Below, piece after piece: positions 5,144 to 62,500 of a stretch of 64,000 nucleotides of DNA. The translations under genes were made by a program, and so were the position numbers. How positions within the stretch are numbered: position 1 is the first letter of the stretch; the number at the start of each line of letters is the position of its first letter. Under the pieces are notes generated by a model that had not been told where the DNA came from, did not search any database, and worked only from the letters and a program-made list of their open reading frames with translations. The stretch is from Malacoraja senta (Eukaryota): positions 18,850,001 through 18,914,000 of the forward strand of contig CM075989.1 in NCBI GenBank assembly GCA_038087875.1. Reading direction: 5' to 3'.

Positions 5144-8100
5144 CTGCACACAAAGAGAACAGTTCATTTGGGCACAGTCGTGGAAAAAAACAAAAACGTG
5201 TCCACTAGGTTTGCTTTCCTCGACATCTCCCTCACAACTTGCATTCAAGAACTAAATGAAAACTGCAGCCAGCTTTCTGTGGTAAATTCCTGCACACAAG
5301 CATTGGAGTCACAGTGACTCCAACACACTTCAACTAACATGCGCAGCCGAGGAATTACACCACAGTTTCCAGGAAGTGGATTGAGGGATCTCATTCACAC
5401 AGTCCACACTATCCCTTGGGTTATGGCCATTTGGAGACCCTTACAAGAGATCATCACATAGATTCATCTAATTTTAATGTTCCCCTCCCTCACTTAGTAA
5501 CGACTTCTTGTAAACATTATCATATGTTCATCGACCTCAAAGTTGAGAACAAGTCAGAACCGAATGATCAAGGAACACACACAGCTAACAGACATTACTG
5601 AAGGCGGTTTTACAACACCAACTTTCTCTCTTTCAGCTATTGAAGTAGATGTGGTGTTTTAGTTATGGTTGAATTCTTAAATCCCAATAATGTTTTCATT
5701 CCAACTACTTCATGGGGTGTGTGAGGGTGGGCAGAGGAGAGCCATTGAGCATCCTTGATTATGATTTGCATAGTGGCTTGCACAGTGGTACAGCAGTTGA
5801 GTTGCTGCCTTACAGCACCAGAGACCTGGGTTCAATGCTGACTACGGGTGCTGTCTGAATGGAGTTTGTACGTTCTCCCTGTGACCACGTGGATTTCCTC
5901 CGGTTGCTCTGGTTTCCTCCCACATTCCAAAGACGTGCGGGTTTGTAGGTTAACTGGCTTCTGTAAACTGTCCCTAGTGCGTAGGGTAGAACTAGTATAT
6001 GGATGATTGCTGGTCGATGGTCGGGACGGACTCGGTGGGCCAAAGGGCCTGTTTTCATGCTGTGTCTCTAAACGAAGCTAAAATCCTCAATAGTTAAATA
6101 CTGAACTGTATCGGTAAGTGTTCAGCAAGGATAATGGGGAGTGGGGTGGGGGGGGGCAGGAGATACAGTTCACATTAAAACTAGCCAGTTGCTGGTCAGA
6201 TAGTCCGGTCCATCATCTGATGCCACTATCAGCAGACAGGAACTTGTCTACGCAAACATGCACAGATATATATGTACACACCCACCACTCTCTGTGCGAA
6301 AACGTGCCCTATACATCTCCTTTAAACTTTGCCCCTCTCACCTTAAAGCTGTGCTCTCTGGTCTTTGATTTTTCCATTCTGGGATAAAGGTCTGACTGTC
6401 TACTCTAATTATGCCTCATAATTCTAGATACTTTTATCAGGTTTCCCATCAGCCTCCGTTGTCCCAGAGAAAATAATCTTATTTTGTCTAACTTCTTTTT
6501 ATAGTGAATGCCCTCTGATCCAGGCAGCATTCTGGCACAAGTTCAATGAGTTATAAAATCTTTCTGAGATTATCCATATTAAATAACATCAAACAACACT
6601 GTCTGAAGAAGGGTTTCGGCCCGAAACGTCGCCTATTTCCTTCGCTCCATAGATACTGCCTCACCCGCCGAGTTTCTCCAGCATTTTTGTCTACTGTCAA
6701 AAGAGAAATGGCTCAGACTGGTTGATGGCACTTCCCATTATTTTAAACCTGGGAGTAACTCAGTGGGACAGGCAGCATCTCTGGAGAGAAGGAATAGGTG
6801 ACGTTTCAGGTTCCCTTCAGAACCAGAAACATCACCCTTTCCTACTCTCCAGAGATGTTGCCTGACCCGCTGGGTTGCTCCAGCATTTTGTGTCTAACTT
6901 CAGTGCAAACCATCTGCAGGTCCGTCCTACACATTATTTTAAACTTGTTGGGTGCACAAAGCTACTGGGTCACATCCCTGCACACATAAAGCCTGCTTAA
7001 AGTTATGGTCAAGTTTCACGAGTGAAGAAGGGTCTCGACCCAAAACGTCACATATTCCTTCTCTCCATAGATGCTCACTCAGCCGCTGAGTTTCTCCAGC
7101 ATTTTTGCCTACCGACGAGTATATCACTTCATTTCTACAACGTGTCAATAATCACTGGAGCAGGAATAGATGGGCATATTCTGGTCGCCAAGCTATAGTG
7201 AGGATGTCATTGAGATGGAAAGAGTGCAGAAACGAGTCACAAGGATTCACTGGCACTGGAGAGAAGGAAGGGTGACGTTTTGGGTCATGACCCTTCTTCA
7301 CTCATTGAAGAGGTATGGGCAGGTAAAATTACAACACTCAAAAGGCATTGGGACAGGTACAAGGATAGCAAAGGTCTGGAGGAAATTGTGCTAAATACAA
7401 GCAAATGGGACTAACCCAGGCAGGCAACTTGGTCGGCATGTACACGTTGGGCCAAAGGGCCTGTTTATATGATGTCATCTATAATTGATGTTATCTGATA
7501 ATTGGAACAAGACTACATTGTAACGGGGAATGTTTTCACAGCAGATTTCTGTACAGCACTGCCTGTATTGTTAAGTCATTTCAAGGTTATAAACGTGCAC
7601 ATTACCTACCTATGATAGCCACGGTGTGCAGCCGGAGCTCTTTCTGTAGAGTGTGAAGTGCTGACGTCAAAGCTTCCGATGACTTTGATGAGACGTTAAG
7701 ATTCTGTTTCACGTCGTTGGACAGTGAAAGCCAAAGGTTCCCAAATTCTTCAGTCGACAGCTTTAAAGGCCTGGAAGCAGACAGAGGCAGAAACACAGCT
7801 AACGTGTTTATTGTTATATTTAAAAAAACATGCATTTACATCAGCACACTGGTATTACAAAATAATCAGCCAACGTTTTAATTTAACTCTACTATTATCT
7901 ACCCCTAACATTCCAGGCAGAAGCCTCGACATTCCCTTTCTTGCTACAACATTCCACACTGAAGGTTGAGCACATCAAAGGCAAAAAACAAAGTGATTCC
8001 AAGAAAACAATAAAAGACACAAAGTGCTTGAGTAACTCAGCGGGTCACACGGCAACTCTGGATAACCTGGATAGCCAACGTTTTGAGCATCCATATCTCC

Positions 8101-16158: not shown

Positions 16159-16217
<59 letters not shown>

Positions 16218-19200
16218 TCGCGGTTTCATCACTGACGGTCGATCCAGCTCGAGGTTTTTCAGGCGAGTGCCCTCGAGCTTGAAGGGCGAAGACAGTCGCT
16301 GAAAAGCCGCGTTAGTGGGACAGGCCCTTAAGGAGGCAGAAGAGACACCAAAAATTGTCCATGTTGGTTTACAAAAAACGGACACAATCCTGGAGTAACT
16401 CAGCGGGTCAGGCAGCATCTGTGGAGAGCATGGATAGTTTGTGGACAACCTGTCCATGTTCTCCAGATATGCTGGCTGACCTGCTACATTACTCCAGCGT
16501 GTGTGTGTGTGTGTTTGTGGACAACCTGTCCATGTTCTCCAGATATGCTGGCTGACCTGCTACATTACTCCAGCGTGTGTGTGTGTGTTTGTGGACAACC
16601 TGTCCATGTTCTCCAGATATGCTGGCTGACCTGCTACATTACTCCAGCGTGTGTGTGTGTGTTTGTGGACAACCTGTCCATGTTCTCCAGATATGCTGGC
16701 TGACCTGCTACATTACTCCAGCGTGTGTGTGTGTGTTTGTGGACAACCTGTCCATGTTCTCCAGATATGCTGGCTGACCTGCTACATTACTCCAGCGTGT
16801 GTGTGTGTGTTTGTGGACAACCTGTCCATGTTCTCCAGATATGCTGGCTGACCTGCTACATTACTCCAGCACTTTCTCTTTTTTTTTTAAATTAAAAAAA
16901 AGAGGCAGAGATTGTTCTAATTAAAGCAGAGATCAAAACCAGATAGGTGAACAAAATCAAGAATACATAGAAAATATACGAGGAAAAGCCATTTTCATAC
17001 GAATTAACACACCAGACCTTTCAGCCTAGGCTTGTGCTGATCAAAAGAACCATGCAACCTAAATGAGTTTGTCTTGGCATCTTGCTTGGCACTGTTCCTG
17101 TGCTGTACTGTTCTATATTCTATGTTCCTAATAGATCCAACTGCCACATGTTGAGGTCTTGTTTTTCATGTGCTCATAAAAATGACTTAGGATTTTCTTT
17201 GATTTGATGCAGTGACTTAAGTGCGAGAAACCAGATGATAGATGAGGAGGAAAATAAAGATCGGGGCATTATAAAACAGGCCAAACTGTGGAATGCAGTG
17301 CAGGAAAGAATGTACACTCGCAGGCAAACTTCATGAGAAAATTACATAAATACTTGAGGGGAAAAAATACTGCATTGAGGGGAGAGGGCAATGGCAACTT
17401 TCTCAACCCTGCAGTTAGAAAAAAACATTCATATTTTCCGATTTACAGAATTCAGTCTATTGTGAAGTACATCTCTCTGCAAGAGTCACGGTATGTTCAG
17501 CACAAATCTGGATTGCTGATTGAGTTTGAAGAAGGGTCTCAACCCGTAACGACACCTACTCCTTTTCTCCAGAGATGCTGCCTGACCCACTGAGTTACTC
17601 CAGCACTTTGCATCTAATCTTCTGGATTGTTACTCGAGTGGGCTCACTGGTAGATGGTGTCCAGTTGCTATAGCAATAGAGCATGCAAACCTGTGCTTGC
17701 ACACATTACAAGCAGGTCTGTCAAGGGATGTCAAACAAAGATAAGATACAAAATGCTGGAGTATTTTAGCGGGTCAGGCAGCTTCTCTTGCAAAAAATGG
17801 ATAAGCGACATTTCAGGTCGGGTCCCTTCTTAAGGTGCCAAACAAAGGATATAAGGCTCAACCTGCCTGCCTCCTCTCTCCTGAAACATCAGCTTTACCC
17901 CCAATGTCTACTGTTCAAGATCAGGTTTTTTTTAAAGCATCTTTTCACTTCACATTTCAAACATGCTCCTGCCCTCGATCCCACCTGCTGCCCTCTGCTG
18001 GCCAAATACTGGCTCTTCACAACCAGCCACTGTGCCCCACCAAGACCTCCTTCCTGCCCCCAAGATCAGAAGTGGGGCAGAAAACAACTTCATATTGTAT
18101 AAATTCAGGGTGTTAACTCAGTATAATTTCTTTGGGTGCACCATAAAATTAACCAAAGATTAATTATTTTTTAACAAAGACTGTGCAACAGCTTTGCGAT
18201 TCATATTTGCTTACCATCCTCTTTGAAGTGAATCTATACACATATATTGATGCTAACTTACCAGATTTACAAGGTTATTGGATCCCAAACCAACAAATAG
18301 AGATGATGCCAAAAGTTGTCTCTCTTGTTCTTCTGCAGAAATACTGACGACACTTTCTGCAGCGGAGGGACTTTGAGCAGCCATTTCACCTTCGGAAACA
18401 GCACTTGTTTTGCTTGAGGTTTCTTCTTTGGATTCCTTGCTTCGAAGGTAGCCCTTCGTACCCCACACTTTCTTCACCCCTTCAAGTTTCAGACCCTCTG
18501 AACTGAACATAAGAGGTATACAATTCAACACAAAATCCAAATGTTGGCAAAAAAAAAATCCTTTGTTCATGCATACAAGAAATCACTACTGCACAGAGTT
18601 TTTAGAAAGCAGAATGTTAGTTGTCTGTCTCCAAACACACAAATAAAAGTATTTGTTTTACACTGTTATAAAGTCCCTAAACGTTGATGGGATTGGATCG
18701 TGTAAGATATTTGCCAAAACTAGAGGTCACAGATTCAAGGCACACTTATGAGAAGTAAGCATTTAATTCAGAACTGACGTTCCAAAGATGAGCAGGTTTG
18801 TAGGTTAATTGGCATTTATAAATTATCCCCGCTGTGTGGAAGAGAACTAGTGTATAGGTAATCGCTAGTCAGCGCTGAGTCGTCAATGGGCCGAGGGACC
18901 CGTTTGCACATGGATATTGCTGCGTGCACACTGACCACCTGGTATCTTTATGACCCTACCCATCAAATGCATTTAATTAACACTTTAATCAAATGCTACC
19001 CATTTAGTATTATTGACTTATTTGCAGGGGACTGCTGAGAAATTAATACATTTAATTAATACATCCTCAAGATGAATAAAGTACAGAGTGCTCCAAAGCA
19101 ATTCCTCTAACTTCCAAAGTCGGTGGCTACATCAATTCAGACTTCTTTCAAAGACATATTCAACCACACATGCTAACGTTCAACCCAAAATCAACTGGGT

Positions 19201-22200
19201 TACAAGCTCAGAAATGTTAACAAAAATCTATTTCACATGCTATATTGACATATTAGATTTATAATCTAAACAAACAGTATTCATGCTAACATCTGATGAA
19301 GCAACACAAATCAGCAAACTTACTCTTTTAATCCAGATTCTGTGCTGTTGTAAGAAATCTCTGAATTTATGGACAAGTCTGCAGGGGATTGTCTTCCTGT
19401 AACACTGGAGATATGTGGGCTTGTTGGAAAAGATAGTCCATAAGGTTCAAAATTCAACACTGTGGAAAAATATGAATGAAATTACTTAATCGTGCGGCTA
19501 GCTTCTAACTGAAGATAGCAGGCATATGTGCAAACATGCTTAAACTTTAGAAGAACGTAGAACCGTACAGCACAGGAACTGGCCCTTTGGCCCACAATGT
19601 CTGTGCAGTACATAATTCTAAGCTAAACTAATCTCATCTGCCTGCACACAATCCATACCCTCTCCATATCCGTATGCCTGTCTAAATGCCTCTTAAATGT
19701 CACTATTGTATCTGCCTCCATCACTCCTAGCAGCACATTCCAGGCACCCACCAATCTCCGAGTAAAAAAACATATCCCGTATGCCCCCTTTAAACTTTGC
19801 CCCTTTCACTCTAAAGCTATGCTCTCTAATCTTTGACATTCCCATCCTGGGAAAAAGGTCTGAATGCTTATCTTTTCTTTCTCTCTTATACTTGATTTTG
19901 CATAGAAAATATTTGAACACTCACTAATTAATGATAATTATTTCAGTTTGATATTTCCACTAGGGGGTGCTGTCTCTCTGTGTATTTGCTTCCTAATCTA
20001 TTACACACACAGACTGCATTGATCATGCACTGCAGTTGGTTGTGGCCTCGTGAACAGCAAATCCAATGGTCTTCAATAAGAGAAATTAAAAAAAGAGAAG
20101 CAACTTGTGGTATTGAAAGGCAGAAATTAGGTCTTGAAAGAAAAACCATATGTGGAAGAAGCAGAAAGAGACGGAAGACAAAAAGGAACAATTTTAAAAC
20201 ATGTTTCAAAACCTTTAAAGTTCTCACGAAACACAAGGAAGTGCAGATGTTGGAATTAAAATAAAATAAAGTTCCATGGTTCACATTCTGCACCCTCCAA
20301 AGCTGAAAGGCATGTCGAGATCAGGAAATGATGGGGAAAGATCACTGGCTTGAAACATTATCTCCCTTCCCAGACAATGCCTAACCTGCTGCATATTTTC
20401 AACATTTTCTGATTTTATATCCGATTTCTAACATCAACAATGTTTTACCATTGAAAGATACCAGATGAGCAACGTTAAATCAATGTTGCCCTTCTGTAGA
20501 TATAAATTTAAAGAGGGTTTGTGGTGATTTTGCTTGCCCAGATTCTAAACTGCGTAGGTTAAAAAATTGTGAAATAAATAAAGCAAATGTTGGAAACACT
20601 CAGCAGGTCAGTGTCTGTGGAAAGAGAAACAGCGGAATTGGGGGAGATAACAAGTTTGTTTTCATTGTCTAAGGTGGGGTGAGGATGGATAGGACAAAGG
20701 ACGAGGCCAGGGTTCTCCTGGCGATCACCATTAGTTAACGGATTAAAGAGCAGTTATTAACAAATCCAGATTATACCTCAAGCTCAAAGTAAACTGTGGA
20801 GCAGTTCTGGCCCAGAGTGATCGCTGGTCCCTATATGGTCTTGGTTCAATGATATATCCACATAAACAGTGTCTGGGCATTAACTAGTAAAGCGAGATGT
20901 GTGGAGTAAACAGTTTGAGAAGACGGCATTTCATTCAAAAGCCTCAAAAAAGCTTCATCGTAATTGCCCAGCATAAGAATTTATTATGGGGTCTTCTCCC
21001 CACCCCCTATCAGTCTGAAGAAGGGTTTCGGCCCGAAACGTTGCCTATTTCCTTCGCTCCATAGATGCTGCTGCACCCGCTGAGTTTCTCCAGCATTTTT
21101 GTGTACCCATAAGAATTTATTAGATGGACGGGATAAAGTATTAGGATAATAAGTAATTACTTTGATAAAGATAAATTGTAGAAAGCCTAAAGAAATTGCT
21201 TTACCGCTGAGAAAGGTAATTGATTCCAACATCACTGCGGCACGATGGCGCAGCGTCATTGTTACTGCCCCACAGCGCCAGAGACCGGGTTCAACCCCGA
21301 CTACGGATTTTGTACTCCTGTACGGAGTTTTACGTTCTCCCTGTGAACGCATGGGTTTTCTCCGGGCGCTCCCATTTCCTCCCGCATCCCAAAGATGTAC
21401 AGGTTTGTAGGTTTATTGGCTTCGGTAAAAGTGTAAATTGTCCCTAGTGTGTACAATAGTGCTAGTGTACGGGGTGATCGCTGCTCAGTGCGGACTGGGT
21501 GGGCCGCTGCATCTCTAAATTCTAAAATAAATCATTTATTTATAAAGCAAGCATACCATGTCTTTTCTTCACCACTCTAAGTCCTTGTGTTGCCACTTTC
21601 AGGGAGTCATGGACTTGGTCTCTAAGATCCCTCTGTATATCAATGCTGTTAAGGGTCTTGCCATTAACTGTGTATACTTACCCCTTACATTCGACCTCTT
21701 AAAAGTGCAAAACCTTACACCTGCTCAGGTTAAACACCACCCGCCGAATTTTTATTTCCGCAGTTGCAGATTTTTCAACAAAAGACTCATCAACAGTAGA
21801 TGTTGTCGAGATTCAGGATGCACTTAAAATTAATAAACTGCTTAAAAGGCTAGATATGCTTACCATCGATAAATCACCCGCTCTGGATGAGATTCATCCC
21901 AGGTTGTTTAACGAATAAAGGAGAAAAGTGCAAAGGCCACGGCTACTACCACCAATAGACCCAGAGGCAGATTCAAGAGCTTAGAATGTCACCTTGCATA
22001 CAATTTGAGCACTGAGACATTTCTATATTCGGTTTAAACCAGCATTTGCAGTTCCTTCCTACGCACGTCATTTCTCTCATATATAGGAAGGAACTGCAGA
22101 TGCTGGTTTAAACTGGATAGAAATTACCCAGTGTTCAAATTGTATGAAGATAGACACAAAACGCTGGAGTAATTCAGCAGGACATGCAGCATGTCTGGAG

Positions 22201-25200
22201 AGAAGGAATGGGTGACGTTTCGGGTCGAGACCCTTCTTCAGACTCCTTCAGTCTGAAGAAGGGTCTCGACCCGAAACATCACCAATTCATTCTCTCCAGA
22301 GATGCTACCTGTCCCACTGAGTTACTCCAGCATTTCTCTCATGTATAATGATCCACTGCATCAGCTCCAATACCTCCGCAAGTGAAACTGACTTTTTTTT
22401 TTCTCTTTACCTTTTTCTTGAGCCAATTTCTCTTCTTGTCTTTGATGATGCGGCTTATACGGTGCAACTCCGCAACCCAACGCATCGGCAACAAAACCAT
22501 CCAGAAAAGAGAGCGAAGCATCAACCTAATCCAAGTAACAAGCACAATCCTGTTTATTCTTCTTTTCCATTATTTGCAGTTTTGAAAATTGGTTGCATCC
22601 TGATAAATTAAATTCAACACAATGATGCAGCAACTTTCCTTTTTGCAAAGCGGGTTGTTTAAAGGTACCACAGATGGCCTCATTTGAGGGGGTGGGGGGC
22701 ACAATGGTGCAGCTGGTAGAGCTCACAACGCCAGAGACCAGCGTTCGATCCTGACCTTAGGCCCTGTCTGTGTGCAGTTTGTACGTTCTCCATGACCATG
22801 CAGGTTTCTTCCCACATCCCAAAGGTTTGTAGATTAATTGGCCTCTGCAAATTACCTTTAGTGTGCAGGGAGTGGATGGGAAAGTTAGATAACATAGAAC
22901 TAGTGATTTATGGTCAGTATGGACTTGGTGGGCCGAAGGGCCTGTTTCCACGGTGCATCTCTAAACTAAACTAATTTGATATCCATCATGTCCAATAACC
23001 AGATGGTCACGCTGAGAAAGAACTCAGAACATTTCCCCATTCCACAGCTCAAAGATCAGAGCCTGAGACTGCAAGGGGTACCATCTTGAAATGAGACATT
23101 AAACCAGGTCTCCTCCCCCCCCCCCCTCCCCACCCAAAAATAAAAATATCAATTTCTCCCGATATGCTTCGTGTATCTTGTATGACAATTGCCTATCACG
23201 TTTGCTTGCAGAATAATGAATATTACTTCAAAATTAATGAACAGAGGTAAAACACCTTGAAATACAAAGACATTTCATCGATGCAAGCTTTTTCCTTAGG
23301 CTTAAAGCCGTCGGGTTTAATTAACTATGTTCAAAACTACACCATGAATTCCATCTTCTAACCGAGTTACTGAGAAAACAATTCAGAGCCATGGAGCTAC
23401 ACAGCAAAGAAGCAGGCTCTTCAGTCTAACTCGTCCATGTCGACCACATTGGTAACCAAGCAAGACCCGCTTTCTGCACCTGGCCAGTATCCCTCCAAAA
23501 TGTGTAGGAAGGAACTGCAGATGCTGGTTTATAACAAAGATAGACACAAAGTGCTGAAGTAACTAAACAGGTCAGACAGCACCTCTGAAGAAACATGATG
23601 GATGATGCTCAAGGTCGGAACTTGGAACGTCACCCTTTTTCTCCATTGATGCTGCCTGACCCGCTGAGTTCCTCCAACACTTTGTGTCCATCTTCAGTAT
23701 CCCTCCAAACCTTTCATATCCATTTACCTGTCCACGTATTTTTTTTAAATGTTGCAATTGTATCTGCCTCTACTGCTTCCTCTGGCAGTTCGATCTATAT
23801 ACAAACCACACCACACGGTGTGTACAAAAGTTTCCCATCAGTTCCCTTTTGAAACTTTTCCCCTCTAATTACTCAGCTTATCCAACCTCTCCTTATAACT
23901 CAACACCTCCAAGAGCCAGTAATATCCTCGTAAATGGTTTTTGCACCCTTTCCGGTATAATGACATCCTTTCAATAGTAGGGCTACCAGAACTGCACCTA
24001 AAGCATTTCAAAGTAAATCCTGTGTTTGAGAGAGAGGCTACTAATCACTGAGCGTGAACTAAGTAAACTTACAATATTTTGGTCTTGCGCACAAATAGTT
24101 ACAAGAGACTCACCACTATATCATCACAACTTGCATTCAGTGGTAACACTGAGGTCATCATCTCTCTGTTCTCAATAAATTGCTTCAACTCAAAACAACT
24201 TTGTCTCAAACAAGGATCCATTGAATTGCCCAAACTTTGCATGATTTCAGGTATTGCTTTGACATTCAGTGTCAGATGATAGAGTTTGGTAATCGCACTC
24301 AAGATCCAAGCTTTTGTTTCCAAATTTGCAGCACATTTTCCGAGTAAACAGTGTAACTTCTGTATGACGTCTTCTGGTTTGGTTTCTGTTTTGAGGTAGG
24401 AATATTCTCCCAGCACCTGACACACAGAGAAAGAACATATTTCAACCATTTAATCCAATCTTTATTTTCATACACATTTCTCTTACTTTCAGCCTTGCAC
24501 ATATTCTAACATTTATTTTCATCATAACTCGGTCATTCACCAAAAATGAGCAGCCTGTGTCAGTTATATTCATTAATATGTTGTTAACAGGCAACTGAAC
24601 CAACTAGAGAGCAGTGCTGAGCTCCCATCTACGTCACTGGGATCATTTGAACTATCTTTAATCAGACTTTATCTTGCACTAAATATTATACCCTTTATCC
24701 TGTATCTGCACACTGTGGATGGCTTGATTGTAATCATGTATAGTCTTTACACTGACTGGATAGCAGGTAACAAAAAGTTTTTCACTGTACACATGACAAT
24801 AACAAACTAAACATTCAACATGGGCCAGTATGTCTTGGCAAAATGTTGTTGTCTTAGAAACATAGAAAATAGGTGCAGAAGGAGGCCATTTGGCCCTTCG
24901 AGCCTGCACCGCCATTCATTGTGATTACGGTTGATCATCCACAATCAGTAACTCGTGCTGCCTTCTCCCCATATCCCTTGATTCCGCTAGCCCCTTGAGT
25001 TCTATCTATAACTCTTAGTCCAATAACAATTATGCAATGATGTTAACGTAAAATTATTTGCATGTACCAAGAAACAAAATAGGCCATGGCATGGACTTTA
25101 TGGCCACATTGAAAAGAGTTGTGAAAGTTAAGTAAAATTAACTGAAACAAGAAGTTTCTTGAGCCAACATTCCTGCTCAGTGTTCAATTATCATGTAATG

Positions 25201-28200
25201 ATGTGCGGGATGTTGGAAATCCAAAATAAAAACGTAAAATTCTGGACATTTAGACATCCTATTACTGTCATTCCATTTGATCTGTAAATTTCTCCCCCAC
25301 TTTGTAAAAACTAACTTGCACTTCTCAGTTCTAACAAAGGGTTGCAATGCTAAAACATCGGCTGTTTCTCATTCCACGGTTGTTGCCTGACTTGATGAGT
25401 TTATCCAGCAGAAAAAAATCAATTACTTGCTTAAGATGTTAGAATCACTACCTGTCACATCTGCGACATTTTCTAGTTCGAGTGAAGAATCAGAAAGTTT
25501 GAAATTTACTTTCCAGTTGGTTTTTCTGTACCCACCTATCACTGGCCAGGCTTTGCCCTGCCCCTCCTCTCTTCCACCTTTCGTCCCCCCCCACCCCCCC
25601 AACCACAATCCGTCTGAAGTAGGGTCCCAACCCGAAACATCGCCTATCCATGTTCTCCAGAGATGCTGCCTGACCTGCTGAGTTACTCCAGCACTTTGTG
25701 TCCACATCTAACTAGGTCACCTTCCCTGAAAATATTACAATGCAACATTAACATACTATATGCATGGACAATCACAATCCTATGAACTGCCAAGCCCACT
25801 CCATTCCTTTTATTTATAATCTTACCCAGCTCATAACCTGTAGGAATTTCTGGGGATATTGTGCTTTGGGCTTTTCCAAAAGGGCAAGGTAGGAATTCAC
25901 TGCATAGAGTCTCAACTGCTTGTCCTCCACTTCATCATCAAATCCTAGAAGTCAGAGAGAACATTACATTTTAAATATCAAAACCAAGCTGCAAATGTAT
26001 CAATAACATTTATCTTCAGGAGTCATATTTGGAAAATATGGGTGTCTAAATTATGTGAAGGAATGATATACATCTTGTTATACTCACAAACCAAGAGTGG
26101 ATTAGTAAAAGACTGACATTAAATGCCTTTGTCAGTACGACAATATCTCTGGCATAGACAGTGGTGCCTAAACCTTCTCATCCATGGCCAAAAATTGATC
26201 ATACATTTGGACTTTATGGAGAGGAAGTATCCTCTAGTGGGAGAGTCCAGGACCACAGGCCATAGCCTCTGAATAAAAGGACATATCTTTAGAAAGGAGA
26301 TGAGGAGGAATTTCTTTAGTCAGCCGGTGGTGAATCTGTGGAATTCATTGCCACAGACGGTTGTGGAGGCCAAGTCAATGGATATTTTTAAGGCGCCGAT
26401 TGACAGATTCTTGAATAGTACAGGTGTCGGGGGTTGTGGGGAAAAGACAGGAGAGGATTAAGAGGGAAAGATAGATCAGCCATGAATGAATGGCGGAGTA
26501 GACTTGATGGGCCAAATGGCCTAATTCTGCTGCTATAACGTGTATTTATGACTTGCGGGCCATATTTTAAGATAGCACGATAAATGAATGAATAATTCTG
26601 TCAAAATGATTCAAGCTTTCGAAACATGTTATTTTGCTTTGTAGCTTATTAATCACAAAATTAAAGCATTAAGAAAATCAAATTAAATAATTGAAGACAA
26701 TATTAAAGCATGAAACAAAAGACTCACAATGAATATTGTGAGGACAGTGAATGTTCTTACCAGTCTACCCGCCTGCCCCGTGAATGCCAAAACTTACACC
26801 ACAGCTGCAAGGCTGCATGTCAACTGGTTCAACAACTTTATATCCTATAATTTTATTTTAATCCTTTGGACCTCCTCTTACGGCCCAGTTTCACTCCTTT
26901 GCAATGTTGGGCCCCGGATGGAGGTTGGGAACCAGCGATCTTAAGTGTGCATCAGAAATAAGAAACACCTCAATAAAAGATTTTCCTACTTTCATAAAGG
27001 TATGACATTTAAAAGGGGCGCTGAATCATTTAAATGAATGACAAGTCACAGCGATACTCTTGTTTTGCATACACAAGGTGCATGCAAAGCAAAAAGAGTC
27101 ACCACATGAGGGCGCCACCGACAAAGTTAAGGAATCCCACACCAGGTCCTGTTTAAGAAGGAACTGCAGATGCTGGAAAATCGAAGGTAGACAAAAATGC
27201 TGGAGAAACTCAGCGGGTGAGGCAGCATCTATGGAGCGAAGGAACAAGAAAGTCTGGAAGGAGACCCTCCTTCATCAGTCTGAAGAAGGGTCTCGACCCA
27301 AAACGTCACCCATTCCTTCGCTCCATAGATGCTGCCTCACCCACTGAGTTTCTCCAGCATTTTTGTCCACACCAGGTCCTCCCTTGTTCTGTACCCCCAC
27401 GCCGGATCCTCCTTTGTCGCCCCCCCCCCCCCCAACTACCCTGGTGGTAAACACTTTCCAAGTTAAATATAACTACTGAATTTCAACAGTGATTCTTTCT
27501 GCTGGTCGTTTACCTTCAGCCAGTAGTCTCAAGAAGTTGTTTGGGATTTCCGGTTGTATCATATCTCCACCAACTGAAAACACAGTGTTCATGGTTTGTA
27601 TAAACCACTCGTTACTGGGAGCATATGTTTGTCGGTTGTCAAGGTGGGAAACCAATCCATTATAAATCTGTCTGCTTTCTTTTGATTATGTGACAGAGAA
27701 TGCACGGGAGGGATTGGGAAGATGTATTTCAAAAGAAAATTGCACTGAACAATACATGAAAGATTATTTTCTGGATGATATACTATTGAAATGCAAATCT
27801 GAAATTAGCATTTTCATTGCACATTTTAGGAAAAATTATAGAATAGTACCTCCCACCTTATTCTCAGCTTTCTTTTGGCTAAGATTAGCAAATGATGCAA
27901 AGGCAGCGCTGCATCCTGCAGCCAGACCATGCATGGATGCAATTTACACCACAGCCTTGATGCATGGGTTAGATTAGATGCATGATTAGAGTTTCAACCA
28001 AGCTGCATTTTAAACTTCTGCAGTCATTAAGAGGGAGAATGGAAGTCCACTTAAATCCAATTATATCTATGCATCCCAGAACTTTAAAAAAAATGTGAAC
28101 TGCAACATTCCAGACATCTATCAGCAATGCAGACTGAAACATCGTGCAAATTTTCATTTTCTTTAATGTCCACATTACAACTATCAACGGTCAAGACCTT

Positions 28201-42820: not shown

Positions 42821-43659
42821 GGTCTTAGTTTCGTTCAGAGATACGACGCTGAAACAGGCCCTTCGGCCCACCGAGTCCGCACTGACCAGCGATCCCCGCA
42901 CACTAACACTATCCTACACACACACACACACACTAGGGACATGTTTTTACAATTATACCAAGCCAATTAACCTACAAACCTCTACGTCTTTGGAATGTGG
43001 GAGGAAACCCGAGCACCCGGAGAAAACCCACGCAGTTCACGGGGAGGTAGACAAAAGTGCTGGAGAAACTCAGCGGGTGCAGCAGCATCTATGGAGCGAA
43101 GGAGATAGGCAACGTTTCGGGCTAAAACCCTTCGTCAAACTCCCCACAGACAGCACCCGTAGTCAGGATCGAACCCGGGTCTCTGGCACTGTAAGGCAGC
43201 AACTCTACCGCTGTACCACCATGCCGCCCGGTCTTCATTAAACTAATCTCCTCTACCTGATGTGACCCATGCCCCTCCATTCCCTGCATATTATCCACAT
43301 GCTTATCTAAAAGCCTCTTAAACGCCACTATCACAGCTGCCTTCACCACCACCCCTTCCAGCAGGTTCCAGGCTCTCTGTAAAAAACCTGCCCCGCACAT
43401 CTCCATTGTGGTAGACATTTCCATCCTAGGAAAATTGTTTCTGGCTGACTATCGTATTTATGCCTCTCATAACTTTATATAATCCTATCAGAACTTCCCT
43501 CGACATATGGTGTTCCAGAGAAAACATTCCAAGTTTGCTCAATCCAAGCCAGCACTTTGTGTCTTATTCTGTAAACCAGCATCTACAGTTCCTTGTTTCT
43601 ACATGTCAGTCCAACCTTCCCATGTACCCAGTATATCCCAGTACTCACCAAAGCCTCCT

Positions 43660-44056
43660 TCCTCACCTCCATCCAGAGATACCAGCATCCTTTCCAGGTG
43701 AGACAGATGTTCACGTACACCTCTTCCAACCTCATTCAGTGCTCCTGATGTGGCCTCCTTTACATCGGCGAGACCAAGCACAGATTCGGCAACCGTTTCG
43801 CCAAACACGCTTGGCGAAACGGTTGCGCTTGGCCCATCAAGGTCTGCTGGATCTCCTAGTTGCTAACTATTTTAAGTCTCTTTCCCATTTCCATGCCAAC
43901 CTTGGATGGAAGGAATGGGTGATTTTTGAGGCTGAAGAAGGGTCTCGACCCGAGATGTCACCCATTCCTTCTATCCAGAGATGCTGCCTGTCCCGCTGAG
44001 TTACTCCAGCATTTTGTATCTATCTTTGGTGTAAACCAGCATCTGCAGTTCCTTCC
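43660..44056 (+). mobile_element. Penelope-like GIY-YIG endonuclease relic with downstream terminal repeat
   Basis: Degenerate FQVRQMFTYTSSNLI..CS*CGLLYIGETKHRFGNRFAKH. Confidence 0.72.
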
Positions 44057-47000
44057 TAAACATCCCTGTCAACATTTCTGTCCTGGGCTTCCAGACTATG
44101 TTAGCTACTTTTCCGAGGCAGCGAGATGTGTAGTTGGAGTCACTGGTGGTGAGTCTGGTCTGTGATGGACTGGGCAACACCTGCAACTCTAAGATTCTTG
44201 TGTTCTTTGGCAGACCTTGATATTCAATAGCATTACCAGGGCACAAAATGTTACTGGCCATCTGTCCATTTGATGAGGATTCATGTTATCTGTCCATTTG
44301 ATGAGGATTGTGAATTTAAATTAAACACGTTGGAAAGACCTCAGCAAAGATTTCCACTTCTGACCATATGATGGAAGGATATTCATTGATGAAGCGGCTG
44401 TAGATGGTGGTGTAGATGTCGGTGCCTCGGACACCAGCCTGAGGATCTCCTGATCTGAGGCTGAGATGACCGACTCCAACAACTACCACTATCTATCTTT
44501 GTATGAGGTATGGCTCCATCAACAGGACAGCTTGTTTAGTTTAGCTTAATTTATAGATACAGGGCGGAAACAGGCCCTTCGGCCCACTGCGGCCACACCA
44601 ACCAATGATCACCTATACATTAGTTCTACCCGACACACAAGGGCCAATTTACAGAAGCCAATTAACCTACAAATTTGAACTTTGGAATGTGGGAGCAAAC
44701 CGGAGAATCCGGAGAAAACCCATGCGGTCCCAAGGAGAACATATAAACTCCTTACCTGTAGTCAGGATCGAACCTGGGTCTCTGGTGATGTAAGGTAGCA
44801 ACTCTACCGCTGCGCCCCTGTGACATACTGATTCCCTCGTTATTTGTTGGGTATTTTAAGTCATTTAGCTCAACCTGATGTTCAAGGCACCTTATGCCAT
44901 CAAGTCATAGTCATCCAACATGAAAACAGGGCCTTCAGCCCAACTTATCCATAACGAGCAAGATACCCTCTCTGTCTACACTAGTCCCATTTGCATGTGT
45001 TTGGCCATATTCATCTAAACATTTCCTATTCATGTACCTGTATTTTAAATGTTGTTATCGTACCTGCCTCAACTACTTCCTCTAGCAGCTCATTCCATAT
45101 ACCCACCACCCTCTGTGTAAAAAAAGTTGCACCTCAGGTTCCTATTAAGTTGCCCCTCAGGTTCCTATGTGTGCATCAGTATGACAGGTGATGAGGGAAT
45201 ATCAACATTAAGGTGGTGTGTGACTTGGAATGGGTGTGGGTCGAGTTGGTATGTCCCATTTGCGTGATGCTTACAAAAACTATTTGTTTTTCTCTTTTCC
45301 CTCTTTCTCTTTCTTCTTCTTTTCTAGGGTCTATTTCTTAACTCTTTTTCTTTTGTTTTTAATTTTGTTCTTATAGGGTCTTCGTTATTTCTTGTTGTCA
45401 CGTTTTCTACACTTTCACCTTTTCCTTCACTTTCTTCTTTCTCTCAATCTCATCCTTTCCCTTTACTAGTGTAAAAAACAAACGGAGTACATTAATTGTA
45501 AGAAGATATATGTGACGAGTACTAATGTATGTGGTTGTAATGTAATGTACTTCTAATAAATAAAAAATAAAATAAAATAAAAATAAAAATAAAAAGGAAT
45601 GGGTGTGGGTCACTGGTATTCTGAAAGCTTCATACATTGACTCAAGAATCAGGTCATTTCCATAGCCTTTTTAAATTTCAGCAGACCATCTATGTTCCAG
45701 CTTCTTGCTTTACAATCTCTATTGAAGTCAACAAGACGCACTGGGGAACCTTCATGACATAAGTCAATAGACATTAGTGCAGTAGGCCATTCGGCCCTTC
45801 GAGCCAGCACCGCCATTCAATGTGATCATGGCTGATCATCCACAATCAGTACCTCGTTCCTGCCTTCTCCCCATATCCCCTGACTCCGCTATTTTTAAGA
45901 GCCCTATCTAGCTCTCTCTTGAAAGTATCCAGAGAACCGGCCACCACCGCCCTCTGAGGCAGAGAATTCCACAGACTCACAACTCTCTGTGTGAAAAAAA
46001 AAAAGTCCAAACACCACTTCTCTCCTCAATCTGGGCATTAGGTTCAGACAGAGTTTGAGGACATGTCGCAGTTGAGTTAGATCTGTTAGTGGATTGACGT
46101 CTCAAGTATAGGTCTTTGAACAGTCTTTGTCCTGGGGTTTTAAAAGACATTCGGATGGATACATGGATGGGAACGGTTTGGAAGAATTGCAAATGAGACC
46201 AGCTTAAATGGTGCACCTTGCTTGGCTTTGTCCAGTTAAGCTGAATATTCATACCACTGGGTTGTAAGCTGCCCAAGTGAAATATGAGGTGCTGTTCCTC
46301 CAATTTGCAAGTGGCCTGACCCTCATTCTAAAGAAGGGTCTCGAACCAAAACGTCACCTTTTCCTTTTCTCCAGAGATGCTGCCTGACCCGCTGAGTTTC
46401 TCCAGCAATTTGTGTCTATCTTTGGTGTAAACCAGCATCCGCAGTTCCTTCCTACACAGTTAAGCCATGGAGCCTGTTTCCATGCTATATGACTCTATGA
46501 CTCCATTAAAGTGGAAATACAGACAATTATAATTTCCTTAACTGAACGATACAAGCTGTGGTTGAAATGTTTGCAGCAATAATATTTTACTTCTTATAAT
46601 AATACTTAAAGAGTGGGCGGATTCCATCTTCAATAATATTTCAACCTGTGAGATATGTTATATATGAGTTCCAAATTCCTTATCACTATTTTAATTGAAA
46701 AAATATATATATTTTCTTATCTCTATTTCCAACTTGAGCTTCTCTTAGCCCGAGTCATTGGAAATTGGTTTAAAACCTCTTATTATCTTCATGTGTTTGT
46801 CTGCATCATAACCAATGGCTCTGACATTCACACTACAGAGGAAAGCACTCTGGATGATTTCATCTGGTACATAGAGTTCTCAAAATGTTCTGCTTTGGTG
46901 TATAATCAATAGATCCATATAAACTTTGTGACAGATTGCATTGGACTATAAGTATGATTCAATTTCCAATGGACGTCTGAAACATGTATTTATTCCTTCC

Positions 47001-48162: not shown

Positions 48163-49140
48163 ACCTTCACGTTCCTGGGCGTGCATATCTGTGAAGATCT
48201 ATCCTGGGCCCAGCACATCGATGCAATCATGAAGAAAGTTATCAACGCCTTTATTTCCTTGGAAGACTAAAAGGAGATGTGGTAGGTTGTCAAATACACT
48301 CTTGAATGTCTACAGTGGAGAGCATACTGACTGGTTGCAGCACAGCCTGATTCAGCAACTCCAACGCCCATATATGTAGTAGACTACAGAGAGCGGTAGA
48401 CACTGCCTGGTTCATCACTGGGATCTACAGGAAGCGCTGCCTCAAAAAGGCAGGTAATATCATCAAAGACCCTATTTCATTTCACTACCACTATCGGGAA
48501 GAAGGTACTGGAGCCTGAAAACTGTGACCACCAGATTCAGGAACAGCTTCTTCCCTGCAACCATCAGGCTCTTAAACACTGCACAACAGTGTGGCACAGT
48601 GGCGTATTGGTAGAGCAACTGCCTATTGCAGCGCCAGAGACCCGGGTTCAATCCTGACTACGGGTGCTCTCTGTACAGAGTTTGTACGTTCTCCCCGTGA
48701 CCTGCGTGGGTTTTCTCTGAAATCTTCGGTTTCCTCCCTCACTCCAAAAACGAACATGTTTTTAGGTTAATTGGCTTGGTGTAAATGTAAAAATGTATCC
48801 CCAGTGTGAGTAGGGTAGTGTTAATGTGCGGGGATGACTGGTCGATGCGGACTTGGTGGGCCGAAGGGCCTCTCTCCGCACTGTATCTCTAAACTAAACT
48901 AAACTAAACATTAACTGTATCAACTAAGATCTTCTATAGACTGTGCCTTTGATTGCACAACAGATTGGTTTTGCATAACCATGGCTACCTCGTGGCACGG
49001 TCATTAATTTATTGTATTAATGATTATTATATATTTCCATCTGTGTGTTATTTGCGTCACAGACCTGATAAGCTGCAGCAAATACGTATCTCATTGTTTC
49101 AGTGCCCGTACATATGACAATTAAATACTCTTCACTCTTG
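48163..49140 (+). mobile_element. Older Rex1/Babar-like fragment interrupted by a SINE (about 48592-48909)
   Basis: Degenerate FTFLGVHI..DLSW..HI, RLYFL, LPSGRRY..LKT.TTRFRNSFFP motifs. Confidence 0.7.
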
Positions 49141-49736
49141 ACAGATGCCTAACAAGAGCTTCTTCGCAGCTCAGGGCATCAATCATCAAATGTATTAAGC
49201 ATTCAATGTTTGACGGCTCGCTGTCGGGAGAGTGTTTGCTGATGTGATTTGTTACACACGGGGTCTTTTGTCCAGCATTCAATGTGTTTGCAACGTGGAA
49301 CTATAATGTGAGGTGCCGAGCGCAGGCAGTCAATGAAATGGAAACTCGTTTACACACAGCCCACAGCCAACAAATGGACCGAATATCCTTCATCACCGTT
49401 ACTTTCATGCATGTCTTGCATTCATTTGTTCCATATCTCCGTACCACATCTAAATCTCTCGTTTCCCGTTCCCCTGATATCAGTCTGAAGAAGGGTCTCG
49501 ACCTGAAACGTCGCCTATTCCTTTTCTCCAGAGATGCTGCCTGACCCGTTGATTGTTTCCGTTATCATCGTTACTTTTTTGCATATCTTTCATTCATTGT
49601 TCTTTATCTCTCCACATCACCGTCTATGTCTCTCGCTTCCCTCATCCCTAACCTGTCTGAAGAAGGGTCTCGACCCAAAACGTCACCCATTTCTTTTCTC
49701 CAGAGATGCTGTCGAGTTACTCCAGCTTTTTTTGAC

Positions 49737-50170
49737 TCGCTTGTACTGGCTAGAATTTAGAAGATTGAGGGGGGATCTTATAGAACTTACACAATTCTTA
49801 AGGGTTTTGTAAGGCATTCTTAAGGCTAGATGCAGGAAGATTGTTCCCGATGTTGGGGAAGTCCAGAACAAGGGGTCACAGTTTAAGAAAAAGGGGGAAG
49901 TCTTTTAGGACCGAGATGAGAAAAAAAAATTCACACAGAGAGTGGTGAATCTGTGGAACTCTCTGCCACAGAAAGTAGTTGAGGCCAGTTCATTGGCTAT
50001 ATTTAAGAGGGAGTTAGATGTGGCCCTTGTGGCTAAAGGGATCAGGGGGTATGGAGAGAGGGCAGGTACAGGATACTGAGTTGGATGATCAGCCATGATC
50101 ATATTGAATGGCGGTGCAGGCTCGAAGGGCCGAATGGCCTACTCCTGCACCTATTTTCTATGATTCTATG
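49737..50170 (+). mobile_element. CR1 LINE 3' fragment (near-identical to the 3' end of the 52077-54064 copy)
   Basis: [16 protein letters not shown] coding end, CR1 3'UTR and TTCTATG tail. Confidence 0.88.
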
Positions 50171-50298
50171 TTTTTTGTGTCTATCTTCGGTTTGAACCAG
50201 CATCTGCTGTTCCTTCCACACAGATGAAAACGCCTGATGTATTTCTATCGCCCAGCTGAGCTGAGGGTTTGTGTGTGTGTGTGTGTGTGTGTGTGGAG

Positions 50299-59500: not shown

Positions 59501-62500
59501 ATTCCCTCCAGATTCTATCCCCCACCCTCACACTAGCGGCATTAGACAGCGACCAATTAACCTACAAACCCGCACATCAATGAGATGTGGGAGAGCTGGG
59601 ACCAGAGCACCCGGGGGAAACCCACGCGATTACAGGGAGAACGTGCAAACGCCACAAAGACCACACCCGAGATCGGGATCCAATGTGGGTCTCTGGTGTT
59701 GAGAGGCAGCTGTGCCACCGTGTCGACCCTTGCAATCAACTCTTCTTCAATATTTGGAACATACGCGATGGAGGGGCAGATGGAGCAGTCAGTGGGTCGA
59801 GGACACTATGGAGAGGAAGCTCTGGAGCTGTGATCATTGTCCTCCTGTGACCACCACTATCTACCTTTCTGTGAGGCTTGACTCCAAACATTGGAGTCTT
59901 TTCTCCTTGATACCCATTGGCTTCAGATAAACCAGGGTTCCTGGATGAGTAGGAAGGAACTGCAGATGCTGGTTTATACCAAAAATAGACACAAGTGCTG
60001 GAGTAGCTCAGCGGGACAGGCAACCATCTCTGGAGAAAAGGGTTCCTTGATGCCACACTCAACTAAATGCTGCCATTATGTATCTCTTATCACACCTCAA
60101 GAACTCCATGCTTTAGTCCACTCCTGAATGTAATGAGGTTAAAGTTCAGTGATCCTGGTGAAATCCAAATGTTTTCCTTGGCTTCATAAGTTCATGTGAT
60201 AGGAGCAGAATTAGGCCATTTGGCCCATCAAGTCTACTCTGCCATTCAATCATGGCTGATCTACCTTCCCATCTTAACCTCATTCTCCTGCCTTCCCCCC
60301 CACCCCAAAACCTCTTTGGTTCTTTCTGCTTTCCCTTCTGTACGGTTTTGAGCGGAGGCTTATGTTTCCACGGCTTTTTTCTTATTTCCTCGCTTCCTCC
60401 ACAGAAAATCGCAAAGGCTGCAAATAAACAACGTGAGCTTGTGAAGAAGGAGAGAGACCGGACCCCAGCCATTAACGAGAACCAAAGAAACAGCCTACCA
60501 GTTGCCCAGGGCATGGACGATCTTCAATACTTTCCAAACTTCTACAACCTGCTGCAGAGTTTAAACACAGGTAAATGAAAAATCCTCATCCTCCTCCACT
60601 GTCAGAGTGAGGCCACAGACAAATTGAAGGAGCAGCGCCTCATATTTCGCTGGGGCAGCTTACAACCTTGGGGGTCAGAGCGACGCAGCAGTAGAGTTGC
60701 TGCCTTACAGCGCCGGAGACCCAGGTTCGATCCCGACTACGGGTGCTGTCTGTACGGAGTTTGTACGTTCTCACCGTGACCGCGTAGGTTTTCTCCAAGA
60801 TCTTTGGTTTCCTCCCACACTCCAAAGACGTACAGGTGTGTAGGTTAATTGGTTTGGTGTATGTGTAAATTGTCCCTAGTGTGTGTGTGGGATAGTGTTA
60901 ATGTGCGAGGTGATCGCTGGTCGGGGCCGAAGGGCCTGTCTCTGCGGTGTATCTCCAAACTAAACTCAGCGGTATGAACGTTGATTTCTCTAATTTCAAA
61001 TAACTCCTGTATTCCCTCCCCCCTCCCCCACCCTAGTTATCCTACCAGTTCCAATGTTCACATCCTTGTATCTTCCCCAGCCCACAATGGGCCATTATGG
61101 ATTCCAACCCTCCTGAGATCATCTGTTACCAGCGCTGATTTGTTCCGGCCCTTTCCCACCTCCACTACACTCCCCCACCCCCCCCCCCCCCTCCCTTCAC
61201 CTCCACCTTTCAGTCTGAAGAAGGGTTCCGACCCGAAACGTCACCTATTCCTTTTCTCCAGAGATGTTGCCTGATCCGCTGAGTTACTCCAGCACTTTGG
61301 GTCTATCTTCGGTATAAACCAGCATCTGCAGTTCCATCCTACATGTTGGGAAATCGGGATGAATTCTGTAAGGAAGGGGCGGAGAACAAGAAGTGTTCAC
61401 TGGTATTAACGAGCAAACAAGGCGGATAATCAAAGTCACTGGAGAAGTACAGTTAACACTGCTCTGCTCCTGCAAGAATGGTGCTTCTATTAACAGCAAA
61501 CCAACATGTCCTTGCAATTAGTAATTTCCAACAGTCCCGGAATCATGTTTGCTGCCTACAGCCTTTCTTTCAATAATATTATCTTTTACAAATATTCCTC
61601 AGTTTTTAGTTATTGTTTATTAAAATGTGAATAATTTTCCTTTAGTACTTTAGTACAGCGAGGAAAGAGGCCCCTCGGCCCGCTGAGTCCGTGCCGACCA
61701 GCGATCGTACACTCACACTAGCCTACACACGAGGGACAGTTTACAATTTTTACCGAAGCTAAATGACGCTACAAACCTGTACCTCTTTGGAGTGTGGGAG
61801 GAAACCGGAGAAAACCCAGGCAGTCACAGGGAGAACGTACAAACTCCGCAACAGACAGCACCCATAGTGAGGATTGAACCCAGGTCTCCGGAGCTGTAAG
61901 GCAGCAACTCTACCGCTGTGCCTGGCACCATTCATTTACTGCCAACCCCCAACATTTGGTTCATTGAACTAAAAATCCGTATCAGTCATTTAATGATTAA
62001 AACAGTGCGATATTAATGTCAGGTTACAATTACGTTGAGGGAGTGATTGCACAATTAATGAAAGAATCTTTTCTTTCTGCAAAATTGTAACTCTGCAAAT
62101 CAATATGACCATATCAAAATGGTGGACAATATTACAATACGTTATAAACTGTCGTATGCAGCAAAAAAACTGGAATTCATATTCTTTTAGAATCAATATT
62201 TATTTTAGGAGCAGTCGCCTTCTGCTACATAATCCCTGTATCAACAACTATTTAATCCTTGTATCAAAAGCAATTAAGCAATCTCAATTAAAACATTGCT
62301 ACTGTTCACAATATTGACTTATATAATTGAAATCCAGAGCAATGTTCCTTCTGGATTGGTTTAAAACTGTCCTATTTTGTATGTTGCATGCAGATTTTAC
62401 CCAACCCACTTAAATATTTTTTTATTAATGCAGAGCAAGACGCAAAGGAGAAGGAAACATTGATAACCATCATGAAAAATCTAATTGATTTTGTGAAGAT

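What the first reader, a model, noticed from the sequence alone, without database searches (positions are those of the whole stretch)
6598..61345. Abundant Penelope-derived short repeat carrying a minimal hammerhead ribozyme (retrozyme-like family)
Seen: the commonest short repeat here (..GAACTGCAGATGCTGG..CTCAGCGGG..GCAGCATCT..GACGTTTCGGGTCGAGACCCTTCTTCAGACT and its reverse complement, roughly 25 copies) contains CTGAnGA-A-[stem II]-GAAA-CGTC. Intact or near-intact cores lie at 6603, 21015, 49485, 51685, 61215 (+) and 22214-22241, about 29782-29809 (-). Stem II varies while staying paired (GGGT-TTCG-GCCC, GGGTC-TC-GACCC, GGGT-TCCG-ACCC, AGGTC-CC-GACCT). Stem III is reduced to the palindrome ACGT (ATAT in the copy at about 34872). 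Established: CUGANGA...GAAA...UH is the hammerhead catalytic core; minimal type I hammerheads with a palindromic stem III occur in Penelope-like element terminal repeats and are thought to cleave as dimers; an extra A after A9 is a known tolerated variant. Inference: this is a high-copy, mostly non-autonomous ribozyme-bearing retroelement family in an elasmobranch, scattering potential self-cleavage sites through introns on both strands. I cannot tell whether this particular family has already been described.
Basis: partly seen in the sequence, partly recalled or inferred. Interest (0 to 1): 0.82.

Follow-up and report, generated by a model that had tools for sequence, protein, structure and literature searches.

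The report
Penelope retroelement end carrying hammerhead motif
This very common short repeat is the terminal repeat of a young, protein-coding Penelope-like jumping gene and carries a predicted self-cutting RNA (hammerhead) motif; its scattered copies start 30 bases before the predicted cut site rather than at it, so they were likely copied from uncut RNA and do not fit the 'retrozyme' model.

Summary
The repeat and its minimal hammerhead motif are real: 63 hits in the window, 7 with an intact motif, and about 30,000 exact cores genome-wide. It is not a retrozyme. It is the terminal repeat (pLTR) of a Penelope-like element with a 1,212-codon RT + GIY-YIG frame, found in young copies as repeat-ORF-repeat. 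Dispersed copies show the known Penelope signatures: target-site duplications, two 3' ends about 36 nt apart (the 'tail'), and head-to-head pairs with one long and one short arm (48 of 61). Head-to-tail ribozyme tandems are rare (2 among 234 hits). In the young subfamily, 5' ends pile up at one G 30 nt upstream of the predicted cut (2,288 genome-wide), against 205 at the cut and 247 at a nearby control. The templates were therefore probably uncleaved. The solo copies are likely run-off cDNAs from internal RT start sites to the RNA's 5' end. Stem I is only 2 bp, stem II does not covary among copies in this genome, and cleavage is untested. Verdict: new member of a known kind, with useful genomic evidence on an open question, namely what Penelope hammerheads do.

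The parts
6601..6695 (+). Solo short-form copy of the young subfamily; starts at the hot-spot G; hammerhead core 6603-6630, predicted cut after 6630
20987..21107 (+). Short-form young copy with about 20 nt of the parent's pyrimidine-rich upstream sequence, flanked by a 15-bp target-site duplication; core at 21015 with GUU site
4205..4411 (.). Head-to-head pair (short arm -, long arm +) with an 8-bp outer duplication
6752..6932 (.). Head-to-head pair with a 13-bp outer duplication
22084..22336 (.). Head-to-head pair (long arm -, short arm +) with a 12-bp outer duplication; intact core on the minus arm (22214-22241)
23502..23700 (.). Head-to-head pair with a 15-bp outer duplication
27152..27369 (.). 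Head-to-head pair with a 14-bp outer duplication
28222..28357 (-). Long-form solo copy, core mutated
29692..29815 (-). Older copy; core present, stem II has an A-C mismatch
30741..31305 (-). 5'-truncated Penelope-like copy: decayed ORF end (31133-31305), pyrimidine-rich 3' UTR, then the repeat (30741-30845) as its terminal repeat
34867..34955 (+). Decayed copy with ATAT stem III; core at 34872
43602..43808 (+). Decayed GIY-YIG endonuclease remnant of the same family (50% identity to P0002 residues 1081-1156)
43897..44060 (.). Head-to-head pair that appears inserted into the continuation of that remnant
49479..49558 (+). Copy with core at 49485; G-U at the base of stem II
51679..51812 (+). Long-form copy, core at 51685; A-U at the base of stem II
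61209..61343 (+). Long-form copy, core at 61215, preceded by a pyrimidine-rich stretch
16437..16870 (+). Local 74-bp tandem array derived from the repeat; lacks the hammerhead core

Best explanation
The repeat is the terminal repeat of a young, endonuclease-bearing Penelope-like retrotransposon and carries a predicted hammerhead ribozyme, and its dispersed 95- and 130-base copies are likely short cDNAs made from uncut element RNA. Shown: the repeat follows the ORF and, in full-length copies, also precedes it, with the motif 165 nt upstream of the first ATG. Copies have target-site duplications, two 3' ends about 36 nt apart, and one preferred 5' end 30 nt upstream of the predicted cut. Inferred: (1) The RNA begins at that G, inside an initiator-like TCAGT (consensus recalled), which would leave only a 2-nt 5' strand for stem I. 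(2) The RT/GIY-YIG protein nicks DNA and starts cDNA at one of two internal sites, as shown in vitro for the anole element. Starting in the 5' repeat runs off the RNA end and gives the solos; starting in the 3' repeat copies the ORF. Priming from both nicked strands would give head-to-head pairs with one long and one short arm. (3) The hammerhead is probably a slow, dimer- or protein-assisted ribozyme kept by the master lineage to process or switch off element RNA, not to make the template: cutting would remove the cap or detach the RT start sites from the ORF. Dispersed copies are mostly decaying passengers.
For: ORF followed by the repeat in 20 of 20 long-ORF loci; repeat-ORF-repeat in L093, L094 and L096. 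In the 800-kb sample plus window, 16 of 23 ORF ends are followed by the repeat within 400 nt, chance 5.6%. P0002 matches RVT_1 (E 6.9e-6) and GIY-YIG (E 1.5e-3) and Atlas clusters at 0.98. 3' ends: 24 of 68 at the short site and 25 of 68 at the long site; duplication of 8 nt or more in 16 of 29 solos against 5 of 269 control pairings. Head-to-head pairs: 48 of 61 have one long and one short arm (p 3.6e-6), and 33 of 66 have an outer duplication. Genome-wide 5'-end counts in the young subfamily: 2,288 at the G, 1,374 one base upstream, 866 one base downstream, 37 six bases upstream, 205 at the cut, 247 four bases upstream of the cut. Five subfamily majorities differ only at permissive ribozyme positions, while 12 of the 54 columns downstream differ. 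PMC11167929: two internal RT starts, both strands extended, uncut RNA is the dominant template, and the ribozyme cleaves only with the protein.
Against: No cleavage, transcription start or RT start was measured. Both Pfam scores for P0002 are below the curated cut-offs. The 5'-end counts use different anchors with different mutation loads, and the upstream control covers only one upstream variant. The genome-wide cut-site test covers only the youngest subfamily, which has a GUU site; older subfamilies rest on profile starts (7 of 291 at positions 36-40). A cut RNA could be a template whose cDNA integrates poorly. The base before the A start shows no clear excess of G, so there is no sign of a copied cap (listing, read by eye). 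Predicted folds of 4 copies do not form the hammerhead, and only 1 of 4 folds better than shuffles. No covariation among copies. The two-strand priming model comes from a Poseidon-clade element and is transferred here by analogy.
Confidence: 0.7

Rival explanations
1. The short copies are partly an independent SINE-like lineage: solos carry their own internal promoter, are transcribed, and are mobilised in trans by the Penelope protein.
For: Only about one in ten sampled hits is attached to an ORF remnant (291 hits against 22 ORF ends in the 800-kb sample). D. virilis Penelope has an internal promoter (PMC2377424, passages), so a solo could hold all cis signals.
Against: Young solos match the ORF-linked repeat closely, and older repeat variants also occur behind ORF remnants. 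No solo-only subfamily was seen, but none was specifically looked for.
Confidence: 0.2
2. The motif is no longer a working ribozyme; it is kept as promoter or protein-binding sequence.
For: Stem I is 2 bp, the youngest subfamily has GUU, predicted folds do not form the hammerhead, no excess of ends at the cut, and downstream blocks are nearly as conserved. Only 1 of 9 Xenopus dimers cleaved in the 2026 preprint.
Against: Subfamily changes keep the pairs and fall on the free positions N7, loop II and H17. Related motifs in other contigs swap U-A for C-G in stem II and keep the GU/AC stem I. The anole minimal ribozyme cleaves with protein (PMC11167929).
Confidence: 0.2
3. The sharp 5' boundary is a 3' splice site (pyrimidine tract, CAG then TCT), and solos derive from spliced or back-spliced RNA.
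For: A roughly 110-nt pyrimidine tract ends in CAG just before the motif, and a donor-like AAG/GTATG overlaps the first ATG. In D. virilis the intron end abuts helix I (PMC4209133).
Against: No shared upstream exon: in 26 duplication-bounded copies the sequence between duplication and element is 0-30 nt and heterogeneous. Only 7 of 49 matches to the junction pattern have a donor-like variant, and the one of these inspected was an ordinary insertion.
Confidence: 0.1
4. It is a non-LTR retrozyme that spreads through ribozyme-cut circular RNA.
For: The motif is present at very high copy number, and retrozymes are reported to derive from Penelope terminal repeats (bioRxiv 2026.07.22.740005).
Against: 2 head-to-tail neighbours with both cores among 234 hits, against 42 head-to-head. 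No ends at the cut and no permuted units. A coding parent exists, and the motif is minimal, not canonical.
Confidence: 0.05

Closest known systems
Minimal type I hammerheads in Penelope-like terminal repeats (Cervera and de la Pena 2014, PMC4209133)
   Same: Core, extra base between 9 and 10.1, G10.1-C11.1 pair, palindromic 15.2-16.2, mostly single dispersed motifs, opposite-strand pairs, few copies in full elements.
   Different: Stem I is 2 bp (as in D. virilis, against 4-5 bp in Schistosoma). Copy number is far higher (about 30,000 exact cores against 2,000-9,000 reported). The 5' ends argue against their proposed cut-and-circularise template.
Poseidon PAc of Anolis carolinensis (Frangieh et al. 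2024, PMC11167929)
   Same: Hammerhead at the terminal repeat, two downstream ends 30-40 nt apart, uncut RNA as apparent template.
   Different: Here the motif lies 165 nt upstream of the ATG instead of overlapping it, and the protein has a CX4CxxC linker of Neptune/Nematis type and a long proline-rich N-terminal region.
Neptune/Nematis endonuclease-bearing Penelope-like elements (Craig et al. 2021, PMC8557442; Arkhipova et al. 2013, PMC3846280)
   Same: RT then C-terminal GIY-YIG, cysteine linker, partial tandems, inverted truncated copy, tail on one end, target-site duplication.
   Different: Clade placement was not tested with a tree. The family is dominated by 95-130 nt solos with a fixed 5' end, which I did not find described in the passages read.
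Animal non-LTR retrozymes (Cervera and de la Pena 2020, PMC7229834; Li et al. 2026 preprint)
   Same: Short, high-copy, hammerhead-bearing, related to Penelope terminal repeats.
   Different: Not tandem, minimal rather than canonical ribozyme, has a coding parent, ends not set by cleavage.

Membership tests
Endonuclease-bearing Penelope-like element | Single ORF with RT and C-terminal GIY-YIG | tested here: met
   P0002, (both domains below Pfam cut-offs)
Endonuclease-bearing Penelope-like element | Partial tandem forming pseudo-LTRs | tested here: met
   L093, L094, L096
Endonuclease-bearing Penelope-like element | Optional 30-40 bp tail, usually on one end of an inverted pair | tested here: met
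Endonuclease-bearing Penelope-like element | Target-site duplication | tested here: met
   16 of 29 solos against 5 of 269 controls
Neptune/Nematis clade | CX2-5CxxC linker between RT and endonuclease | tested here: met
   Read from P0002; criterion from PMC8557442
Neptune/Nematis clade | RT phylogeny | not tested
   No reference set fetched, no tree built
Minimal type I hammerhead | Core CUGANGA, GAAA, UH; extra base; G10.1-C11.1; palindromic stem III | tested here: met
Minimal type I hammerhead | Helix I of 4-5 bp as in most metazoan families | tested here: not met
   Only 2 bp; third and fourth pairs form in 11-12% of copies; a 2-bp helix I is reported for D. virilis
Minimal type I hammerhead | Compensatory changes in helices | tested here: inconclusive
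   None beyond chance among 178 copies; one U-A/C-G pair across families, in 16 hand-picked rows whose other columns the search pattern fixed
Minimal type I hammerhead | Self-cleavage as dimer or with protein | not testable with these tools
   Needs an in vitro assay
Rfam hammerhead families | Covariance-model match | tested here: not met
   No hammerhead hit at E<=10
Non-LTR retrozyme | Head-to-tail units, each with a hammerhead | tested here: not met
   2 such neighbours among 234 hits
Non-LTR retrozyme | Unit ends set by the cleavage site | tested here: not met
Non-LTR retrozyme | Circular RNA expression | not testable with these tools
   No RNA holder on record, contigs only

The most novel reading that the evidence does not exclude
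Several hundred thousand solo repeats are a genomic record of Penelope 'strong-stop' cDNAs running to the RNA's start, and the hammerhead 30 nt inside that start is a protein-triggered off-switch: binding of the element's own protein would cut off the cap or detach the RT start sites, sorting element RNA into message and template. This would answer the open question of what hammerheads do in endonuclease-bearing Penelope elements.
Probability: 0.25. Interest if true: 0.7.

Novelty: new member of a known kind. Interest (0 to 1): 0.42.

Why it matters
Hammerheads in Penelope terminal repeats are known, and their function is stated to be unclear (PMC8557442). This family is young, has intact coding copies and tens of thousands of near-identical insertions, so insertion ends act as a natural experiment. 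They indicate that integrated cDNA came from uncut RNA with a fixed 5' end, which agrees with the one in vitro study and goes against the circular-template model. The intact ORF and its RNA make the question directly testable. The 140-nt segment alone covers about 3.5% of the sampled DNA, which matters for repeat annotation: it would be mislabelled as a SINE, MITE or miRNA hairpin.

Tried and rejected
Rfam scan: no hammerhead, only miRNA-like hits from head-to-head hairpins. The first GIY-YIG search returned mostly an unrelated telomere-associated family that lacks this repeat. Stem II covariation among copies: not found. Back-splice junction fossils: not found. RNA evidence: no RNA holder listed; contigs of 4 runs guessed to be RNA, laid at 85% likeness, cannot show ends or expression and gave no informative joint. 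Cap-derived G: no clear excess. Lunse et al. (minimal hammerhead dimers) was not held, and only its title was seen in a reference list. Pfam PF26215 is not in the library. Look-ups of earlier scan findings by sequence, words and place gave nothing on this family. Literature searches gave no description of this family or of the fixed 5' end. Repbase and Dfam cannot be searched here, and supplements of PMC4209133 and of the 2026 preprint (one chondrichthyan sampled) were not seen, so the family may already be named.
Full report
Observation. The cores are at the stated coordinates. A profile built from 12 window copies finds 69 hits at E<=10 and 63 at E<=0.01, 37 of which cover the core. Six sites pass a strict minimal-hammerhead descriptor, 34872 passes by eye, and 29782-29809 has a stem II mismatch. 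Genome-wide, one core pattern has 29,833 exact matches, reversed control 0. In 80 stretches of 10 kb picked at round coordinates on the large contigs (not a random draw), there are 291 hits covering 28,364 of 800,000 bases, reversed control 0; this extrapolates to roughly 700,000 hits. Rfam has no hammerhead match.

Parent element. The window holds two decayed GIY-YIG remnants; the one at 31133-31305 is followed by a pyrimidine-rich stretch and the repeat. A 200-residue RT query gave 150 scored matches at 91% identity or more, over 100 with the same score, so the family is young. In 20 of 20 long-ORF loci the ORF is followed by the repeat, mostly about 114 nt downstream; L093, L094 and L096 read repeat-ORF-repeat. 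The L093 frame is 1,224 codons stop to stop and 1,212 from the first ATG. It matches RVT_1 and GIY-YIG, both below the curated cut-offs, and Atlas clusters of the same domain set at 0.98. It has a CX4CxxC linker, the Neptune/Nematis mark in PMC8557442; no tree was built. In the sample plus window, 16 of 23 ORF ends are followed by the repeat within 400 nt, chance 5.6%. The repeat is therefore the element's terminal repeat.

3' ends and pairs. I examined 68 young copies from the first 100 listed of 27,793 exact matches; matches in tandem arrays at C1 3.87-4.03 Mb and the last few listed were left out. Of these, 24 end at a short site and 25 at a long site about 36 nt further. This is the Penelope tail (PMC3846280, PMC8557442, passages), which PMC11167929 traces to two internal RT start sites. 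Duplications of 8 nt or more flank 16 of 29 solos against 5 of 269 control pairings. Over all fetched loci, 66 head-to-head pairs were found; 48 of the 61 classifiable ones have one long and one short arm (p 3.6e-6), and 33 of 66 have an outer duplication (one pair appears twice from overlapping loci). Among 234 sampled hits, close neighbours were head-to-head 42 times, head-to-tail 8 times (2 with both cores) and tail-to-tail 5 times.

5' ends. Of 50 non-inverted young copies, 21 begin in a 13-base zone around TCAGT, 3 just upstream, 19 far upstream and 7 inside the motif. Only 2 of all 68 begin at the predicted cut, both in inverted pairs. Genome-wide counts that require two non-matching upstream bases give 2,288 starts at the G (of 16,291 copies with that core), 1,374 at the A before it, 866 at the T after it and 37 six bases upstream, against 205 at the cut and 247 four bases upstream of the cut. 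Anchors differ between patterns, so ratios are approximate. Across all subfamilies, profile starts fall at positions 3-8 in 154 of 291 hits and at 36-40 in 7. Several copies repeat the first 8-12 bases before the G, as expected if RT reached an RNA end and re-engaged. No shared upstream exon was seen in 26 duplication-bounded copies, and the back-splice junction is rare. I infer an RNA 5' end at this G, probably a transcription start; the initiator consensus is recalled, and D. virilis has an internal promoter (PMC2377424, passages).

The ribozyme motif. It has the features listed in PMC4209133 except a 4-5 bp stem I; here stem I is 2 bp, which matches an RNA that starts two bases before the core. 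Among 178 copies no pair covaries beyond independence, and changes are dominated by CpG decay. Across five subfamily majorities, none of the 11 invariant core positions changes. The five changes in the motif fall on two loop bases, H17 and two wobble-preserving sites, while 12 of 54 downstream columns differ; the oldest small groups change N7. A metagenome scan returned 22 loci with unrelated downstream sequence. Most have C-G where this family has U-A in stem II, and all but one keep AC opposite GU. An alignment of 7 of these 22 with 8 window copies and L093 scores above 500 of 500 shuffles for covariation, but the rows were hand-picked and the pattern fixed most columns. Against activity: predicted folds do not form the hammerhead, the youngest subfamily has GUU, published minimal motifs cleave poorly, and 1 of 9 Xenopus dimers cleaved.

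Mechanism. Shown: structure, parentage, ends and duplications. Inferred: transcription from the G; cDNA started at two internal sites; solos as run-off products from the 5' repeat; asymmetric pairs from priming on both nicked strands; a slow, protein- or dimer-assisted ribozyme that processes or silences element RNA rather than making the template. PMC11167929 found cleavage only with protein, and that cleavage was dispensable for insertion. A partly independent SINE-like lineage and a vestigial motif are the main rivals.

Reading. PMC4209133 parts 1-2 of 4; bioRxiv 2026.07.22.740005 parts 1-3 of 5; PMC11167929 parts 1-2 of 4; passages of PMC8557442, PMC3846280, PMC2377424, PMC7229834, PMC6765202 and PMC6155905; no supplements. 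Searches found no description of this family or of the fixed 5' end, but Repbase, Dfam and most subscription papers were out of reach. The elasmobranch host and the HE1 label are recalled, not tested.

Verdict. Real, mostly an ordinary member of a known system. Not a retrozyme. Of moderate interest because the insertion ends bear on the unresolved role of Penelope hammerheads.

Noticed in passing
L051-L060, L063-L065 (G000 C14 end, C17 start, C5 4.25 Mb, unplaced contigs): A second Penelope-like family: intact 759-codon RT + GIY-YIG frame with an upstream frame of about 600 codons, in head-to-tail arrays mixed with telomeric repeats at chromosome ends, although it keeps its endonuclease. One literature search found nothing.
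   Followed up: partly
L052:6731 (+) and other copies: That family has its own hammerhead-like motif with a different stem II and a possible 5-bp stem I, but the bases at the cut site do not fit the usual UH rule.
   Followed up: no
L093:4835-4964: In the young subfamily the first 12 bases are predicted to pair with the end of the tail, hiding the ribozyme core (z -2.84); weaker or absent in three window copies.
   Followed up: partly
L183, L203, L284, L286, L287: The first 8-12 bases of the element are repeated just before the 5' G, suggesting template re-engagement by RT.
   Followed up: partly
G000:C1:3870334-3892454 and 4008166-4030218: Arrays with a period of about 2.0-2.5 kb that contain the repeat's 35-mer; one stretch was fetched (L271) but not analysed.
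   Followed up: no
window 1268-1572, 5769-6081, 28991-29322, 39138-39328, 48585-48902, 60664-60968: A second abundant repeat family (D9-D13) resembling the tRNA-derived HE1 SINE (name recalled).
   Followed up: no
window 55582-56004 (+); 12783-13508 (-): Secretogranin-3 exon (PF15467, E 1.6e-11) and a weak adaptin C-terminal match (E 0.027), possibly AP-4 epsilon (recalled).
   Followed up: partly
window 52333-54106 (-): RT-like frames of a CR1/L2-type LINE (class recalled).
   Followed up: no
window 42311-42834: GC-rich 45-bp minisatellite with internal inversions forming long hairpins.
   Followed up: no
window 8985-9268 and 57253-57548: Near-identical inverted copies (97-100%) of another young element 48 kb apart.
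   Followed up: no
L241-L262: Metagenome contigs hold several related minimal hammerhead families with T-rich upstream sequence and one head-to-head pair, probably host animal DNA.
   Followed up: partly
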